From a virus: a DNA stretch of 29,233 bases. Of the stretch, positions 23,271-26,680 are shown piece by piece (position 1 is the stretch's first letter; each line of letters opens with the position of its first letter). A program made the position numbers and the translations under genes. Where the stretch lies: IMG/VR virus record IMGVR_UViG_3300027933_000004; one strand, written 5' to 3'. The notes under the pieces are model-generated. The model saw nothing but the letters and a program-made list of their open reading frames with translations, was not told the origin of the DNA and did not search any database.

Positions 23271-24335
23271 TTGTCAAATATTATTTATTACATTTATCCA
23301 CAACATCATGACGTCAGTTTTAAATTTATTGCTTTGCAATATATAAAAATGTTAAAAGAAAAATATACAGTTTATGAAATTCCGGCTTTATCATTCTATC
23401 AATTTACCCCATTCAGAAATCCAATTTCTATAATCCACCCATTTTTTTACAGTATGTGGCACTGGGGAAATGTAGAATTTTCATTTTTTGAACAGTATAG
23501 AACAAAAGTTAGTGAAGTTATTGGAGTTGAAGTTGCTGATAGTGATCAAATTGCAGAAAAATATATTGAATATGGAAATAACTACTCGGATAAAATAATA
23601 GTAAATTCGGAATGGTCAGCAAGAGCGTTTAAAAACTCAGGCTTAAAAGTTCCAATTTATAAAGTTGTCCATAATTTTAACGAAAGACTATTGACGAAAG
23701 ATGAGGAACTAAAACTTGATGAGCAAGTGAAATATATTAAAAAAGTCAAGAATGAGAAGAAAATTAAGCTAATTTTCATATCGCTATGGCATTCTGATTA
23801 TAGAAAAGGTGCTGATTTATTTCATGTAATTGCAAAAGAAATACAAAAAGAAAGGGATGATGTTTATTTCCTAGTTAAAAGTGGAGGGCCTAGGACAGAT
23901 TTTCAAGACCTCAAAATGTTTAATTTCACTGGAAATACCGATTTTGACAATATTGTTAAAATGTATAGAATTTCTGACTTGTATTTATTAACTAGCAGAG
24001 GTGGAAGTTTTGAATTAAACGGTCTTGAGGCTTTTATATCAAAAATTCCAGTAATTGCGACAAAAGGAGGAGCATGGGAAGAATATTTCCCTAAATCGTT
24101 AGAAGATTTACTAGTTAACAGTTGTAATTTTCCAGTTGTTTTGCCAGGAAATCCAATTCATATAGGAAAAGGTGTAGAAATGTGTATTAATGACACAATA
24201 GATAAAATCTTAGAAGTTCTAGATAAACTAGATGATTATAAAGCACGAATTGAAGAGAATTATAATTTCTGGTTAGAAAATTTCAGCTATAATGCAGTAA
24301 AAAAGCAATTGCTTAACACATTAGAAAAATCTTAA
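23271..24335 (+). CDS. GT-B fold glycosyltransferase (354 aa, TTG start)
   Basis: SRGGSFELNGLEAFISKIPVIATKGGA resembles the GT1/GT4 C-terminal domain. A GGTGA Shine-Dalgarno sequence lies 9 nt upstream of the TTG. Confidence 0.75.
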   Translation: MSNIIYYIYPQHHDVSFKFIALQYIKMLKEKYTVYEIPALSFYQFTPFRNPISIIHPFFYSMWHWGNVEFSFFEQYRTKVSEVIGVEVADSDQIAEKYIEYGNNYSDKIIVNSEWSARAFKNSGLKVPIYKVVHNFNERLLTKDEELKLDEQVKYIKKVKNEKKIKLIFISLWHSDYRKGADLFHVIAKEIQKERDDVYFLVKSGGPRTDFQDLKMFNFTGNTDFDNIVKMYRISDLYLLTSRGGSFELNGLEAFISKIPVIATKGGAWEEYFPKSLEDLLVNSCNFPVVLPGNPIHIGKGVEMCINDTIDKILEVLDKLDDYKARIEENYNFWLENFSYNAVKKQLLNTLEKS

Positions 24336-24342
24336 ATTGGTC
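24331..24342 (+). promoter_or_regulatory. TATA+GTC promoter of the permease-TGT unit
   Basis: cttaaattgGTC lies 19 nt upstream of ATG 24362. Confidence 0.65.
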
Positions 24343-24361: not shown

Positions 24362-25555
24362 ATGGAATTTAAAAGGCTAAGTTCAGGCATAATAAAAAGT
24401 TTTAGCTCATTGGACATTTTTTCTATAAATCTTCTTTACATGGGCATTATAAGCGGTATAAGTTACCCGCTTTTCGTTTCAAGTCTGTTAAAATTTGTAA
24501 ATCTATTATTCGCAGTTTTAATAGCATCAGCTTTTGAAATTCCGCTTTTAATAATGTATTACATTCTAACTAAAAAAATGCCGATAAATGGTGGAGATTA
24601 CGCTTATATTCGCTCAACATTTTCACCGAAATTTTACACAGTTTTTGGAATTTCACTATGGCTAGTTTATGTATTTTCAGCCCCAGTATTATCAAACCTT
24701 GTATTGTTAAATTTCAATATTCCAATATTTGATAAGTTTTTAATTTCAGAACTATTATTTGGAACTGCGTTACTCAGCGTTAGCAAAAAAACAATTTATG
24801 CCTATATTGTTGATGCTATTGCAATTTTACAGATAATTGTTTCGTTAATCTTGCCAATTTCAAGTTTTCACTTTATGTCTGAAACTTTCACATTACAAAA
24901 TACTTTACTTTCAGCGTTATTATTTGATTTGGCCATGTTTCTTTTTCTAAATGCAATAAGCTACATAGCCGGAGAGATAAAAAACATAAGCAAAAATGCG
25001 AAAATTGGATATTTTGCAAGTTATTTAGTAGTTACTGTGTTAGCAGTATTAGACAGTTATTCAAATTTAAATATATTATTTCTGTTAATGCCGTTATGGT
25101 TTATGAGTTATATTTTTGTCACTTCTATGATACAAAGTCGTTTAGTGCAAAATTTAGCATTTGATAGAATTTTACCTGAGAAATTTGCGAAGATAGCTCC
25201 TAACGCACTTCTATTAATCTTTGTCGCCGATACAATTGCAAATATCTTAGAAAATCTATTTAACTTTTCAATTTCTTTCGGATTTGACGGTCTATTATTT
25301 ATTTTCTGGAACTTTATAATTGTCAGCTTAGCATTTCTGAAATTAACAAATAACAAATTGGTATTTTCAGCCGTGCTAATTAGCTTAGCCCTGCAAATTG
25401 CATTATTCTTTTATCTTGGAATACAAAACACAACATTCTATAACTTCGTAATCCAGGGGAACATAATATACGTAATAATAAGGATATTAATAATGCCACT
25501 TGTAGGCACAGTTATTTATCTGTCACGGAGAAAAACGATAAATGCCGATCTCTAA
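24362..25555 (+). CDS. APC-superfamily permease-like polytopic membrane protein (397 aa)
   Basis: N-terminal FKRLSS..LDIFSINLLYMGIISG and MPINGGDYAYI match the amino-acid/polyamine permease TM1 pattern and the P-x-x-G-G-x-Y-x-Y loop. About 10-11 hydrophobic segments. Confidence 0.8.
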   Translation: MEFKRLSSGIIKSFSSLDIFSINLLYMGIISGISYPLFVSSLLKFVNLLFAVLIASAFEIPLLIMYYILTKKMPINGGDYAYIRSTFSPKFYTVFGISLWLVYVFSAPVLSNLVLLNFNIPIFDKFLISELLFGTALLSVSKKTIYAYIVDAIAILQIIVSLILPISSFHFMSETFTLQNTLLSALLFDLAMFLFLNAISYIAGEIKNISKNAKIGYFASYLVVTVLAVLDSYSNLNILFLLMPLWFMSYIFVTSMIQSRLVQNLAFDRILPEKFAKIAPNALLLIFVADTIANILENLFNFSISFGFDGLLFIFWNFIIVSLAFLKLTNNKLVFSAVLISLALQIALFFYLGIQNTTFYNFVIQGNIIYVIIRILIMPLVGTVIYLSRRKTINADL

Positions 25556-26445
25556 TGAAGCTAATATTTGGAGTTAATGTTACAACTAGTTATCTTTTTG
25601 AAACCAACTTCCCAGTTTTAGTAAACCAACTAAAACTAAAGCAAATAAATTGGAAAAATGAGACTTGGATAGATAGCGGAGGCTACCAAATTGCGTCACA
25701 CGGACTAAAAATTTCTGTAAATGATGTTCTGCAAAAGTATAAAAGCGTTAATGCTTATGCTTTCTTTTCGCTGGACATACCAAGTATTTTTTCACCACTT
25801 AACAAAAGAAATTTTCAATACTTTGAATATCTTTACGAGAAGATGGAATGGATTGAAAAAATTATCCCGGTCTTACATCTTTATCCAATTCAAGAAGTTG
25901 ATGAAGCTATTGATTTCTATAAACAATACAGTTACTATTTTGCAATTGGAGGCTTAATCACATCCAGCAAAATGAAAATTCTAATTTATACATTTCCGTG
26001 GGTCTATTATCTAAGAAGAAAAGTTCCGTATTTACACGTTTTAGGCATGCCGGCTCCATATTTCCTGCAGACGTTTAATTTTGCCGAGAGTATGGATACG
26101 GCAACTTATAGCAAAACAGCCGCATTTAGAGAAATATTTTGGTTTAATGGAACTAGAAGATATGTAGGAAAACGAAAAGCAAAGAGAATAACTAGAGAAG
26201 AAAAAGAACAATTATTTGAATTTTTGGATAAACATAACTTTCCATTCGTCTATGATTTAAGTAATTTCAAAATTCTAGAACTTATAAATGCGTATATGTT
26301 ACTGTATAACAACTGGAGAATTAAGAATAAGTATACAGAATATGCTAAAAAATTAAGAGGAATGGGATTTGATAGTTTAGCAAGCGAGTTAATTAGAAAT
26401 TATAAGATTGCAAATGGAATATTAAAACAGAAACGAGAAAAATAG
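25555..26445 (+). CDS. Minimal TGT/DpdA-like (queuine/archaeosine) transglycosylase-fold protein (296 aa)
   Basis: WIDSGGYQI (TGT DSGGFQ), FAIGGLITS (TGT AIGGLSVGE) and YLHVLGMPAP...ESMDTATYSK (TGT LMGVGTP...DMFDCV). There are no Cys residues at all, so no TGT zinc site. The start overlaps the permease stop (taATGa). Confidence 0.8.
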   Translation: MKLIFGVNVTTSYLFETNFPVLVNQLKLKQINWKNETWIDSGGYQIASHGLKISVNDVLQKYKSVNAYAFFSLDIPSIFSPLNKRNFQYFEYLYEKMEWIEKIIPVLHLYPIQEVDEAIDFYKQYSYYFAIGGLITSSKMKILIYTFPWVYYLRRKVPYLHVLGMPAPYFLQTFNFAESMDTATYSKTAAFREIFWFNGTRRYVGKRKAKRITREEKEQLFEFLDKHNFPFVYDLSNFKILELINAYMLLYNNWRIKNKYTEYAKKLRGMGFDSLASELIRNYKIANGILKQKREK

Positions 26446-26458
26446 TGCATAAAAAAAA

Positions 26459-26680
26459 TTATTGAAATTGTTGAGAATTTATGAGTTGAGAAAAAAGGTT
26501 TTGTGCATATTTAGAGTCGTGCCCGTGATAATAAAAGTTTCTGTCTTTGCCATCAGCAACAAAAACCCCCCATCTGGAGGAAGAACAGCAATTACACTTA
26601 GCCAGAACTATATTATTTTGAATTTTAATTTGCTGAAAGTTATGGAATTGTATGCCAATTATGTATAACACTTTTCTCAC
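26459..26680 (-). CDS. Right-arm cassette ORF (73 aa, GTG start), hypothetical
   Basis: BRE/TATA box 23 nt upstream. TAA is followed by T8. There is no internal Met, so a GTG start is needed. Confidence 0.5.
   Translation of the reverse strand: MRKVLYIIGIQFHNFQQIKIQNNIVLAKCNCCSSSRWGVFVADGKDRNFYYHGHDSKYAQNLFSQLINSQQFQ

What the first reader, a model, noticed from the sequence alone, without database searches (positions are those of the whole stretch)
24362..26445. Cysteine-free minimal TGT/DpdA-like transglycosylase translationally coupled to an APC-type permease
The 296-aa protein keeps the TIM-barrel core boxes of the tRNA-guanine transglycosylase family: DSGGYQ, AIGGL and VLGMPAP...SMDTATY. 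It contains no cysteine at all, so it lacks the CxCxxC..H zinc site of canonical tRNA TGTs. It is also far shorter than archaeosine TGT and ends in a basic tail (KRKAKRITREEKEQ). Short TGT paralogues (DpdA) in phages exchange guanine in DNA for 7-deazaguanines to evade restriction. Its start codon overlaps the stop of a 397-aa permease (taATGa at 25553-25557). That permease has APC signatures (MGIISG in TM1 and P-INGG-DYAY), and both genes lie behind one TATA+GTC promoter. A virus-encoded transporter fused in an operon with a base-exchange enzyme suggests that the permease imports the replacement base or a precursor. Two glycosyltransferases lie directly upstream, with a methyltransferase and a GNAT-like gene elsewhere in the genome. 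Together these could form a DNA or tRNA hypermodification pathway.
Basis: partly seen in the sequence, partly recalled or inferred. Interest (0 to 1): 0.8.

Follow-up and report, generated by a model that had tools for sequence, protein, structure and literature searches.

The report
Rudivirus DpdA-like transglycosylase with permease
This is the already-annotated permease plus guanine-transglycosylase gene pair of Sulfolobus rod-shaped viruses; the enzyme looks like the short zinc-free phage DpdA enzymes that put 7-deazaguanines into DNA, and a role for the permease in that process is plausible but untested.

Summary
A 397-aa permease (24362-25555) and a 296-aa cysteine-free TGT-fold protein (25555-26445) overlap at TAATG, behind a conserved TTAAATTG-GTC promoter-like element.

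The window is a new SIRV-like rudivirus, about 80% DNA identity to SIRV4. RefSeq already annotates the pair in SIRV1-11 as "aminoacid permease | queuine tRNA-ribosyltransferase". Hutinet et al. 2019 already list the rudiviral orthologues among "DpdA-only" viruses.

The enzyme keeps every TGT/DpdA active-site residue, including the DpdA-type histidine. Its zinc-free C-terminal module is shared with the validated phage CAjan DpdA, so lacking the zinc site is normal for this class. It is 38% identical to the STSV2 homologue, and STSV2 DNA carries dCDG.

The permease is a compact, divergent APC-family transporter closest to Sulfolobaceae permeases.

- **For a functional link:** adjacency survives changes of gene order and orientation across virus lineages.
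- **Against a functional link:** the permease occurs without the enzyme in SSRV1 and ARV2. The enzyme occurs without the permease in STSV and in Sulfolobales chromosomes, where it pairs with an ArcS-core protein. The host makes preQ0. SIRV2 lacking both genes grows normally.
- **No tie to the glycosyltransferase or methyltransferase:** these are conserved in viruses that lack the enzyme.

Verdict: a new member of a known kind, of modest interest.

The parts
24332..24342 (+). Promoter-like element TTAAATTG-GTC (TATA-like box plus GTC), 20-30 nt upstream of the permease ATG. It overlaps the stop codon of the upstream glycosyltransferase.
   Evidence: In an alignment of 11 orthologous upstream regions, the TT of the box and the GTC are invariant while the flanks diverge. 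The sequence was read directly. Function as a promoter is inferred; no transcript data were examined.
24362..25555 (+). Permease gene (397 aa): a compact, divergent APC-family (AA_permease_2-like) transporter of unknown substrate. It is the orthologue of SIRV2 gp14 (ORF399).
   Evidence: ORF. PHROG 8289 'aminoacid permease', E 5e-187. A family profile hits GkApcT 6f34 (E 5e-7) and AdiC. Distant relatives are Sulfolobaceae APC permeases that pass the Pfam cut-off. The window protein alone scores below the Pfam cut-off (16.3 vs 27 bits). The AF2 model is poor (pLDDT 38). dN/dS is about 0.1.
25553..25557 (+). TAATG stop/start overlap joining the permease and transglycosylase genes.
   Evidence: Spacing in other SIRV-type loci runs from a 4-nt overlap to an 8-nt gap. 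The same TAATG overlap occurs in the reverse gene order in L013 and L014.
25555..26445 (+). Short zinc-free TGT-fold guanine transglycosylase (296 aa) of the phage DpdA type. It is the orthologue of SIRV2 gp13 (ORF310).
   Evidence: AF2 pLDDT 93.7. All top Foldseek PDB hits are TGTs. The family profile hits ArcTGT 1iq8 and CAjan DpdA. PHROG 887, E 8e-69. 38% identical to STSV2 'DpdA'. dN/dS is about 0.13.
25672..25689 (+). DSGGYQ motif. D40 is the predicted general acid/base, equivalent to ArcTGT D95 and DpdA D95. Y44 is equivalent to the base-stacking F99.
   Evidence: Invariant in 27 family members. Aligned to 1iq8 D95. Residue roles are taken from PMC10164549.
25774..25776 (+). [quoted passage not shown] Equivalent to ArcTGT D130 and DpdA D130.
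   Evidence: Invariant. Aligned to LDIPT of 1iq8.
25876..25878 (+). H108, a histidine at the position of TGT Gln (ArcTGT Q169). This matches the DpdA-type His (S. Montevideo H181; CAjan PCFHF).
   Evidence: Invariant. Aligned to Q169 and to the CAjan His. The DpdA histidine is described.
25948..25953 (+). G132-G133 of AIGGL, the glycine loop that in TGTs contacts the 7-substituent of the incoming base.
26095..26097 (+). D181 in SMDTATY, the predicted catalytic nucleophile. Equivalent to ArcTGT D249 and DpdA D256.
   Evidence: Invariant. Aligned to D249 of 1iq8 and to CDSSSW of CAjan DpdA.
26170..26300 (+). Basic loop plus helical module (KRKAKRITREEKEQLFEFLDKHNFPF...INAY) that replaces the zinc subdomain of TGTs. 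It is shared with phage CAjan DpdA.
   Evidence: hhalign and hmmsearch alignments run through this region against CAjan DpdA. No CxCxxC..H motif occurs in any family member or in CAjan DpdA.

Best explanation
The 296-aa protein is a single-domain, zinc-free guanine transglycosylase of the phage DpdA type.

**Proposed mechanism (inferred).** It most likely works on double-stranded viral DNA after replication, by the double-displacement mechanism of TGT and DpdA:
1. D40 protonates the leaving guanine.
2. D181 attacks C1' and forms a covalent enzyme-DNA intermediate.
3. [quoted passage not shown]
4. A 7-deazaguanine base (preQ0 or a derivative) is then inserted.

The base probably comes from the host's own archaeosine pathway. 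Modification is expected to be partial: a small fraction of G, or specific sites.

**Expression and role.** The gene is co-transcribed and translationally coupled with a compact APC-family permease from one TATA+GTC promoter. The module is accessory. It is dispensable in laboratory culture but conserved in nature, as expected for an anti-restriction, anti-defence or niche-fitness function.

**The permease.** Its role is the weakest step. My best guess is that it raises supply of the exchanged base or a precursor. I give that about one chance in three. Otherwise it is an independent uptake gene that shares the operon.

**Shown versus inferred.**
- Shown here: the fold, the active-site residues, the DpdA-type architecture, the operon structure, the phyletic and linkage pattern, and purifying selection.
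- Shown in the literature: dispensability of the SIRV2 orthologues.
- Inferred: the DNA substrate, the identity of the inserted base, the biological role, and any role of the permease.
For: **Fold.** The AF2 model has pLDDT 93.7. The listed (top 50) Foldseek PDB hits are all TGTs, led by ArcTGT at E 2e-8. Viral structural hits are phage DpdA and DpdA2.

**Active site.** D40, D74, H108, G132 and D181 are invariant in 27 homologues. They align to ArcTGT D95, D130, Q169, G196 and D249. Those positions correspond to DpdA D95, D130, H181 and D256.

**DpdA-type architecture.**
- hhalign against the validated CAjan DpdA gives 94.4% probability, E 9e-8, over 215 columns that include the zinc-free C-terminal module.
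- The family profile scores CAjan DpdA at 33.3 bits and ArcTGT at 23.3 bits at the same database size.
- CAjan DpdA is needed for 7-deazaguanine insertion into phage DNA. The related phage 9g DpdA does not complement E. coli tgt.

**Family link to modified DNA.** The protein is 38% identical to STSV2_15. STSV2 DNA contains dCDG at 0.04% of G.

**Prior classification.** Rudiviral orthologues are listed as DpdA homologues, and S. islandicus has FolE, QueD, QueE, Gat-QueC and ArcTGT.

**Operon.** The TAATG overlap and the conserved promoter element.

**Accessory but selected.** SIRV2 lacking gp10-14 propagates like wild type. dN/dS is 0.08-0.15.

**Linkage to the permease.**
- Adjacency holds in three arrangements: permease then enzyme, enzyme then permease, and convergent.
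- Some phages encode YhhQ-type preQ0 transporters. CAjan carries one, gp41, about 2.3 kb from dpdA within its preQ0-synthesis gene cluster.
- Clustering with TGT genes has correctly predicted new preQ0 transporter families.
Against: **No direct chemistry.** No nucleoside analysis of any rudivirus DNA was found in the literature searched. US SIRV DNA is cut by restriction enzymes into fragments summing to 35-36 kb, so any modification is partial.

**Weak library matches.** The window protein alone does not reach Pfam TGT or DpdA thresholds and has no PADLOC DpdA hit.

**No pathway genes.** No preQ0-pathway or ArcS-core gene is in the window.

**No phenotype.** Loss of the pair gives no growth defect in the laboratory.

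**Against a role for the permease.**
- The permease occurs without the enzyme in SSRV1 and ARV2.
- The two genes are 4.6 kb apart in SBRV1.
- The enzyme occurs without the permease in STSV and in cellular loci.
- The host makes preQ0.
- The permease belongs to an amino acid/polyamine/organocation family, not to a known nucleobase or 7-deazapurine transporter family. Its binding-site motifs match those of cellular Sulfolobaceae relatives.
Confidence: 0.6

Rival explanations
1. The permease is an independent auxiliary uptake gene for an amino acid, polyamine or other organocation. It was captured from a Sulfolobales host and boosts supply in the infected cell, or alters the membrane. It shares a promoter with the transglycosylase only through inherited gene order. 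Under this reading the enzyme takes its base from the host pool.
For: - The nearest relatives are cellular Sulfolobaceae APC permeases, and they share the same motif set.
- The family profile hits the amino-acid transporters GkApcT and AdiC.
- The permease is present without the enzyme in SSRV1 and ARV2, where it is followed by an unrelated 207-aa protein.
- The two genes are separated in SBRV1.
- The host has the preQ0 pathway.
- The region between dCTP deaminase and the capsid gene is a shared site in SRV, SBRV1, L013 and L014. Part of the linkage may therefore be inheritance.
Against: - Adjacency persists through an inversion (SRV) and a swap of gene order (L013, L014). A TAATG overlap has been re-established in the swapped order.
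- Almost every enzyme gene has exactly one of two partners, the permease or the ArcS core, which suggests the partner position matters.
Confidence: 0.45
2. The enzyme is a tRNA-guanine transglycosylase, as the RefSeq name 'queuine tRNA-ribosyltransferase' says. It would modify host or viral-use tRNA during infection.
For: - The closest curated model by sequence is archaeal TgtA: TIGR00432 is hit by 16 of 27 family members, best E 3e-11.
- The top structural hit is ArcTGT in complex with tRNA.
Against: - It lacks the C-terminal and PUA domains that ArcTGT uses for tRNA, and the zinc subdomain of bacterial TGT.
- It scores 15.6 bits against a 350-bit cut-off for TIGR00432.
- It has the DpdA-type His instead of Gln, and shares its C-terminal module with CAjan DpdA.
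- Phage 9g DpdA does not complement tgt.
- The host already has ArcTGT.
- No tRNA-related genes were seen among the neighbouring genes examined; the window was not scanned for tRNA genes.
Confidence: 0.12
3. The enzyme exchanges or removes guanine for a purpose other than 7-deazaguanine insertion. Examples are insertion of a different imported base, or DNA glycosylase-like activity. Alternatively it is catalytically inactive and serves as a DNA-binding factor.
For: - No 7-deazaguanine synthesis or tailoring gene is in the window.
- The partner is an APC transporter, whose family carries amino acids and organocations rather than purines.
- The source and nature of the base in STSV2 are themselves unexplained.
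Against: - The full set of base-recognition residues for guanine and 7-deazaguanine is invariant.
- Strong purifying selection argues against inactivity.
- The only chemistry known for the family is 7-deazaguanine exchange.
Confidence: 0.1

Closest known systems
Phage-type DpdA (DpdA1), e.g. Escherichia phage CAjan gp35 and phage 9g DpdA
   Same: - About 300 aa, a single TIM-barrel domain.
- Shares the DSG motif Asp, the second Asp, the His in place of TGT Gln, the GG loop and the nucleophile Asp.
- Has no CxCxxC..H zinc motif.
- Has a homologous C-terminal helical module.
- Rudiviral orthologues were retrieved as DpdA homologues by Hutinet et al. 2019.
   Different: - Only about 19% identity.
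- Archaeal virus with a linear, hairpin-ended genome.
- No preQ0 genes in the virus, whereas CAjan carries folE, queD, queE, queC and a YhhQ-type transporter.
- The partner here is an APC permease.
- DNA modification is untested.
STSV1/STSV2 'DpdA' (STSV2_15) with ArcS2 (STSV2_16), and the chromosomal Sulfolobales homologues
   Same: - Same protein family: 38% identity to the window protein and 52% between STSV2 and the Acidianus homologue.
- Same length, zinc-free, same invariant residues.
- STSV2 DNA carries dCDG.
   Different: Their overlapping partner gene is a roughly 175-185-aa DUF5591 ArcS catalytic core, not a permease. The window has no DUF5591 gene.
Archaeosine tRNA-guanine transglycosylase (ArcTGT/TgtA, P. 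horikoshii 1iq8/1j2b)
   Same: Best solved-structure match and best curated sequence model. The catalytic Asp residues and the base-binding Asp align.
   Different: - Half the size.
- No zinc site.
- No C-terminal or PUA tRNA-binding domains.
- His instead of Gln169.
- Far below the TIGR00432 cut-off.
Bacterial DpdA of the Dpd restriction-modification system (S. Montevideo)
   Same: Same predicted chemistry and active-site set, including His181.
   Different: - bDpdA has a conserved CXCX2CX22H zinc site and four insertions.
- It needs DpdB and ATP.
- No PADLOC DpdA hit for the window protein; only 3 of 27 family members touch NF041059 weakly.
APC-family amino-acid transporters (GkApcT, AdiC) and Sulfolobaceae APC permeases
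   Same: The profile matches across TM1-TM8, including the post-TM6 E-x-K-N motif. The nearest relatives are Sulfolobaceae APC permeases.
   Different: - 397 aa versus 460-550 aa.
- The TM1 G-S/T-G and TM6 G-F-D/E substrate motifs are replaced (S-Y-P and N-A-I-S), as in the Sulfolobales subfamily.
- Substrate unknown.
Known 7-deazapurine transporters (YhhQ/QPTR COG1738; QrtT/QueT; validated MFS, HlyIII and ureide-permease examples)
   Same: A transporter gene clustered with a TGT-family gene, the pattern that led to those discoveries. Some DpdA phages encode YhhQ homologues.
   Different: The protein family is unrelated. No APC-family member has been shown to carry preQ0 or preQ1 in the paper read.

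Membership tests
TGT superfamily (PF01702-type TIM barrel) | TGT-like TIM-barrel fold | tested here: met
   AF2 pLDDT 93.7. All 50 listed Foldseek PDB hits are TGTs, with E down to 2e-8 and TM 0.55-0.61.
TGT superfamily (PF01702-type TIM barrel) | Three invariant active-site aspartates: general acid/base, base-binding and nucleophile | tested here: met
   D40, D74 and D181 are invariant in 27 sequences. They align to D95, D130 and D249 of 1iq8.
TGT superfamily (PF01702-type TIM barrel) | Structural zinc site CxCxxC...H | tested here: not met
   No cysteine in the window protein. No conserved Cys cluster anywhere in the family.
TGT superfamily (PF01702-type TIM barrel) | Score above the Pfam PF01702 gathering threshold | tested here: not met
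   No hit for the window protein. Only 2 of 27 members hit, at best E 0.0015. Homology is detected only by profile and by fold.
Phage-type DpdA (DpdA1) | Short single-domain enzyme without tRNA-binding C-terminal/PUA domains and without the zinc subdomain | tested here: met
   296 aa. CAjan DpdA is 306 aa and also lacks the motif. The alignment spans residues 22-253.
Phage-type DpdA (DpdA1) | Conserved histidine replacing the TGT glutamine at the base-binding position | tested here: met
   H108 is invariant. It aligns to Q169 of ArcTGT and to the His of CAjan PCFHF. The DpdA histidine is described.
Phage-type DpdA (DpdA1) | Sequence homology to a validated phage DpdA, including the C-terminal module | tested here: met
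   hhalign probability 94.4%, E 9e-8. hmmsearch gives 33.3 bits, E 3e-7 at Z=177,635. PHROG 887, E 8e-69.
Phage-type DpdA (DpdA1) | Gene-dependent 7-deazaguanine in virion DNA | not testable with these tools
   Needs LC-MS/MS. The only data are indirect: the family member STSV2 has dCDG in its DNA.
Phage-type DpdA (DpdA1) | A source of 7-deazaguanine base (viral or host preQ0 pathway) | tested here: inconclusive
   No viral ArcS-core (DUF5591) gene was found by tblastn, and none of the window ORFs scanned matched a preQ0-pathway family; not every window ORF was scanned. The literature reports the full G+ pathway in S. islandicus. The host of this metagenomic contig is unknown.
Bacterial DpdA (Dpd system) | Match to the curated bDpdA models NF041059, PF23859 and PADLOC PDLC02807 | tested here: not met
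   No PADLOC hit. The window protein does not hit NF041059 or PF23859. Three and one of 27 members hit those two models weakly.
Bacterial DpdA (Dpd system) | Zinc site and DpdA-specific insertions; DpdB partner | tested here: not met
   No zinc motif. No DpdB-like neighbour; the neighbours are the permease and a glycosyltransferase.
Archaeal ArcTGT (TgtA) | TIGR00432 equivalog score and C-terminal tRNA-binding domains | tested here: not met
   15.6 bits against a cut-off of 350. The protein ends about 110 residues after the nucleophile Asp, with helices only.
APC superfamily permease (AA_permease_2) | Sequence homology to APC transporters | tested here: met
   The family profile hits GkApcT at E 5e-7 and AdiC. 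Relatives found by profile search pass PF13520. The window protein alone scores 16.3 bits, below the cut-off of 27.
APC superfamily permease (AA_permease_2) | LeuT-type fold with 10-12 transmembrane helices | tested here: inconclusive
   The AF2 model is unreliable (pLDDT 38), although it predicts about 12 long helices. Hydropathy shows hydrophobic stretches throughout.
APC superfamily permease (AA_permease_2) | Canonical amino-acid-binding motifs: TM1 G-S/T-G and TM6 G-F-D/E | tested here: not met
   These are replaced by S-Y-P and N-A-I-S. The replacement is shared with the cellular Sulfolobaceae subfamily.
Known 7-deazapurine transporters (YhhQ/QPTR, QrtT) | Homology to PF02592 or PF12822 | tested here: not met
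   The only Pfam match is AA_permease_2.

The most novel reading that the evidence does not exclude
The rudiviral APC-type permease would be a dedicated importer for the base, or a precursor, that the DpdA-like enzyme puts into viral DNA. That would add a new transporter family for 7-deazapurines. It would also define a two-gene 'import and insert' DNA-modification module in archaeal viruses.

This module would be the functional counterpart of the 'ArcS core plus DpdA' module seen in STSV and in Sulfolobales chromosomes. The near-exclusive choice of one partner or the other would then reflect two ways of providing the base.
Probability: 0.25. Interest if true: 0.6.

Novelty: new member of a known kind. 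Interest (0 to 1): 0.35.

Why it matters
If rudiviral DNA does carry 7-deazaguanines, a model archaeal virus (SIRV2) with an existing deletion mutant would become a system for studying DNA hypermodification in Archaea. It could also bear on the open question raised by STSV2: where such viruses get their base.

The two alternative partners of this enzyme family are a concrete, testable lead. One is an APC permease; the other is an ArcS catalytic core. The chromosomal copies in Sulfolobales are part of the same lead.

As it stands, the gene pair itself is already annotated and catalogued.

Tried and rejected
- **Single-sequence searches of the enzyme.** The Pfam scan and PDB sequence search gave nothing. 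Homology needed a family profile and a structure model.
- **PADLOC.** No hit for the rudiviral, STSV or Acidianus proteins.
- **Permease structure.** AF2 on a shallow alignment (15 sequences, at least 66% identical) gave pLDDT 38. I therefore did not run a fold search on it.
- **ArcS-core gene in the window.** None found by tblastn.
- **SSRV1/ARV2 gene downstream of the permease.** I tested whether this 207-aa protein is a degenerate TGT. It is not: hhalign probability 0.5% and no Pfam hit.
- **Context of the nearest cellular permease homologue.** Uninformative.
- **Second IMG/VR scan with the permease.** It returned the same contigs, because the patterns used were SIRV-specific.
- **Literature.** Searches for rudivirus plus transglycosylase, and for ORF310/ORF399, found no functional study. 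The SRV genome paper is not held. The supplements of Cui et al. 2023 are not held.
- **Rejected: lack of cysteine marks a new enzyme class.** CAjan DpdA lacks the motif too.
- **Rejected: a pathway with the glycosyltransferases and methyltransferase.** These are conserved in viruses that lack the enzyme.
- **Considered and set aside: the family as a split ArcS N-domain acting on tRNA.** The transglycosylase Asp residues are invariant, and the family matches the TgtA and DpdA models.


Full report
**What is there**

The window is a rudivirus contig. The 2.1-kb region is 80.7% identical in DNA to SIRV4 and 70% to SIRV1/2. The permease sequence occurs on a JGI contig of exactly 29,233 bases.

The stop and start codons share one base, in the sequence TAATG.

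All quoted motifs are present, and the 296-aa protein has no cysteine. Two details need correcting:
- KRKAKRITREEKEQ is at residues 206-219. It is an internal loop, not the tail.
- Only one of the two upstream ORFs is a supported glycosyltransferase.

Cysteine is rare in this proteome at 0.9%, so a protein with no cysteine has P of about 0.07. The meaningful point is that the CxCxxC..H motif is absent from the entire family.

**Already annotated**

RefSeq calls the orthologues in SIRV1-11 "aminoacid permease | queuine tRNA-ribosyltransferase". In SIRV2 they are gp14/ORF399 and gp13/ORF310. The SRV record carries "putative tRNA-guanine transglycosylase".

Hutinet et al. 2019 (PMC6884629) list SIRV1, 2, 4, 5, 7-11, SIRV3 and SRV in their table of viruses that encode a DpdA homologue and nothing else of the pathway. 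They note that S. islandicus has FolE, QueD, QueE, Gat-QueC and ArcTGT, so host intermediates could be used.

Both proteins fall in existing PHROGs: 887 "queuine tRNA-ribosyltransferase" and 8289 "aminoacid permease".

**The enzyme**

Single-sequence searches fail. A 27-sequence family profile hits P. horikoshii ArcTGT at E 3e-4. A confident AF2 model (pLDDT 93.7) has only TGTs among its 50 listed PDB matches. Among viral models it matches phage DpdA and DpdA2.

The invariant residues map onto ArcTGT and bacterial DpdA as follows. Residue roles are those given for S. Montevideo DpdA.

| Window protein | ArcTGT (1iq8) | S. Montevideo DpdA | Role |
|---|---|---|---|
| D40 | D95 | D95 | general acid/base |
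| Y44 | F99 | F99 | stacks on the base |
| D74 | D130 | D130 | binds Watson-Crick edge |
| H108 | Q169 | H181 | binds Watson-Crick edge |
| G132/G133 | G195/G196 | glycine loop (G206/G207) | glycine loop |
| D181 | D249 | D256 | nucleophile |

The histidine in place of the TGT glutamine is the DpdA signature.

The decisive comparison is with Escherichia phage CAjan DpdA (306 aa), which is required for 7-deazaguanine insertion into phage DNA:
- hhalign gives 94.4% probability and E 9e-8 over 215 columns.
- The family profile scores it higher than ArcTGT, 33.3 against 23.3 bits at equal database size.
- The alignment runs through the region after the nucleophile, which is the zinc subdomain in TGTs.
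- CAjan DpdA has no CxCxxC..H motif either.

So "short and zinc-free" is the normal phage-DpdA architecture, not a new feature. The bacterial Dpd-system DpdA is different: it keeps the zinc site and carries insertions. Its models do not match the window protein.

**Family and partners**

The same family includes STSV1/STSV2 "DpdA" (38% identity to the window protein). Cui et al. 2023 found dCDG at 0.04% of G in STSV2 DNA.

The family also includes chromosomal genes of Acidianus, Sulfurisphaera, Stygiolobus, Ca. Aramenus and other Sulfolobales.

I scanned the window and the 57 loci fetched by that point with three profiles. Nearly every enzyme gene has one of two neighbours.

| Context | Partner and arrangement |
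|---|---|
| SIRVs and the window | APC-type permease, then enzyme; spacing from a 4-nt overlap to an 8-nt gap |
| Viral contigs L013 and L014 | Enzyme, then permease, with a TAATG overlap |
| SRV | Permease and enzyme convergent |
| STSV and cellular genomes | 175-185-aa DUF5591 protein, the ArcS catalytic core with the PCxxxKPYxxSxxH motif |
| SBRV1 | Exception: permease lies 4.6 kb away |
| L053 | Exception: no partner within the flanks |
| SSRV1 and ARV2 | Permease alone, followed by an unrelated 207-aa gene |

A rough neighbour-joining tree puts the DUF5591-linked enzymes in one clade. The permease-linked ones fall outside it.

**The permease**

The family profile hits GkApcT (E 5e-7) and AdiC. 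A full-library profile search finds only 61 clusters. The nearest non-viral ones are Sulfolobaceae APC permeases of 466-554 aa that pass Pfam AA_permease_2.

The canonical TM1 and TM6 amino-acid-binding motifs are replaced. The same replacements occur in those cellular relatives, so there is no virus-specific change at the binding site.

The AF2 model was unusable. The substrate cannot be inferred.

**Expression and selection**

A TTAAATTG-GTC element lies 20-30 nt upstream of the permease ATG. It is conserved from Icelandic to US SIRVs while the flanks diverge. This fits a leaderless or short-leader operon transcript, but that is an inference.

Both genes are under purifying selection, with dN/dS 0.08-0.15. 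Even so, SIRV2 lost gp10-14 spontaneously in CRISPR-null laboratory hosts, and the mutant propagates like wild type (Mayo-Munoz et al. 2018). That is the profile of an accessory module, such as an anti-defence or niche-fitness function.

US SIRV DNA is cut normally by restriction enzymes. Any modification must therefore be partial.

**Most likely mechanism**

The enzyme is a DpdA-type transglycosylase. After replication it would replace some guanines in viral DNA with a 7-deazaguanine, using host-made preQ0 or a derivative. My confidence is 0.6 that it acts on DNA and about 0.97 that it belongs to the TGT superfamily.

The case for the permease supplying the base or a precursor rests on:
- linkage that survives rearrangement;
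- the precedent of YhhQ-type transporters in DpdA phages;
- successful "clustered with TGT" predictions of new preQ0 transporter families.

The case against rests on the phyletic exceptions, the host's own pathway, and the transporter's family. I put this link at about one in three. The main rival is an independent uptake gene.

The proposed pathway with the glycosyltransferases, methyltransferase and GNAT is not supported. The glycosyltransferase and methyltransferase are conserved in rudiviruses without the enzyme. The glycosyltransferase is not the neighbour in SIRV2 or SRV.

**Verdict**

This is a new sequence variant of a known, already catalogued gene pair, with about 76-81% protein identity to the closest described enzyme orthologues.

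The parts worth following up are the unexplained two-partner pattern and the untested DNA chemistry. A ready-made SIRV2 deletion mutant exists for that test.

Noticed in passing
L003:8001-9393, L004:8001-9375, L006:8001-9462, L002:9397-10885, L045, L046, L048, L050-L052, L054, L056: Sulfolobales chromosomes (Acidianus, Sulfurisphaera, Stygiolobus, Ca. Aramenus, MAGs) carry the same short TGT/DpdA-like gene. It overlaps or adjoins a roughly 175-aa DUF5591 protein that keeps the ArcS catalytic motif, the same pair as STSV DpdA+ArcS2. In Acidianus the pair lies directly upstream of a DUF87 (HerA-type) gene ... NurA-domain gene cluster. It is not known whether this pair modifies chromosomal DNA or tRNA.
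   Followed up: partly
L013:801-3160 and L014:655-3014: Two metagenomic virus-like contigs carry dCTP deaminase, a 117-like protein and PHA01746 genes. They hold a 40%-identical TGT-like gene followed by a 483-aa relative of the permease, in the opposite order to the window but again with a TAATG overlap.
   Followed up: yes
L043, L044, L047, L049 (genome contigs): SIRV3-like DNA (permease plus TGT, 69% aa identity to the window enzyme) sits in draft assemblies of culture-collection bacteria: Streptomyces gamaensis, Planomonospora alba, Paenochrobactrum glaciei and Nocardioides koreensis. NCBI consequently names the protein 'MULTISPECIES ... [Bacteria]'. This looks like contamination or a sequencing spike-in.
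   Followed up: no
L010:5264-5887 and L011:5264-5887: In SSRV1 and ARV2 the permease is followed, 9 nt downstream, by a conserved 207-aa protein. It has no detectable family and is not TGT-like. It sits where the transglycosylase lies in the SIRVs.
   Followed up: partly
It has no Pfam hit and belongs to PHROG 5113 of unknown function. It contains a DSD motif, so a GT-A-like fold is possible but unverified.
   Followed up: partly
L054 (Thermogutta sp. MAG) and L046 (Desulfurococcales MAG): The TGT-like plus DUF5591 pair also appears on contigs binned to a planctomycete MAG and a Desulfurococcales MAG. This is probably a binning error or a mobile element and was not examined.
   Followed up: no
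window 26459-26680 (- strand) and 26446-26470: The intergenic stretch after the transglycosylase stop reads TGCATAAAAAAAATTATTG. The run of A is a T-run on the minus strand, so it may be the terminator of the convergent 73-aa ORF. No clear T-run terminator for the operon itself was checked.
   Followed up: no
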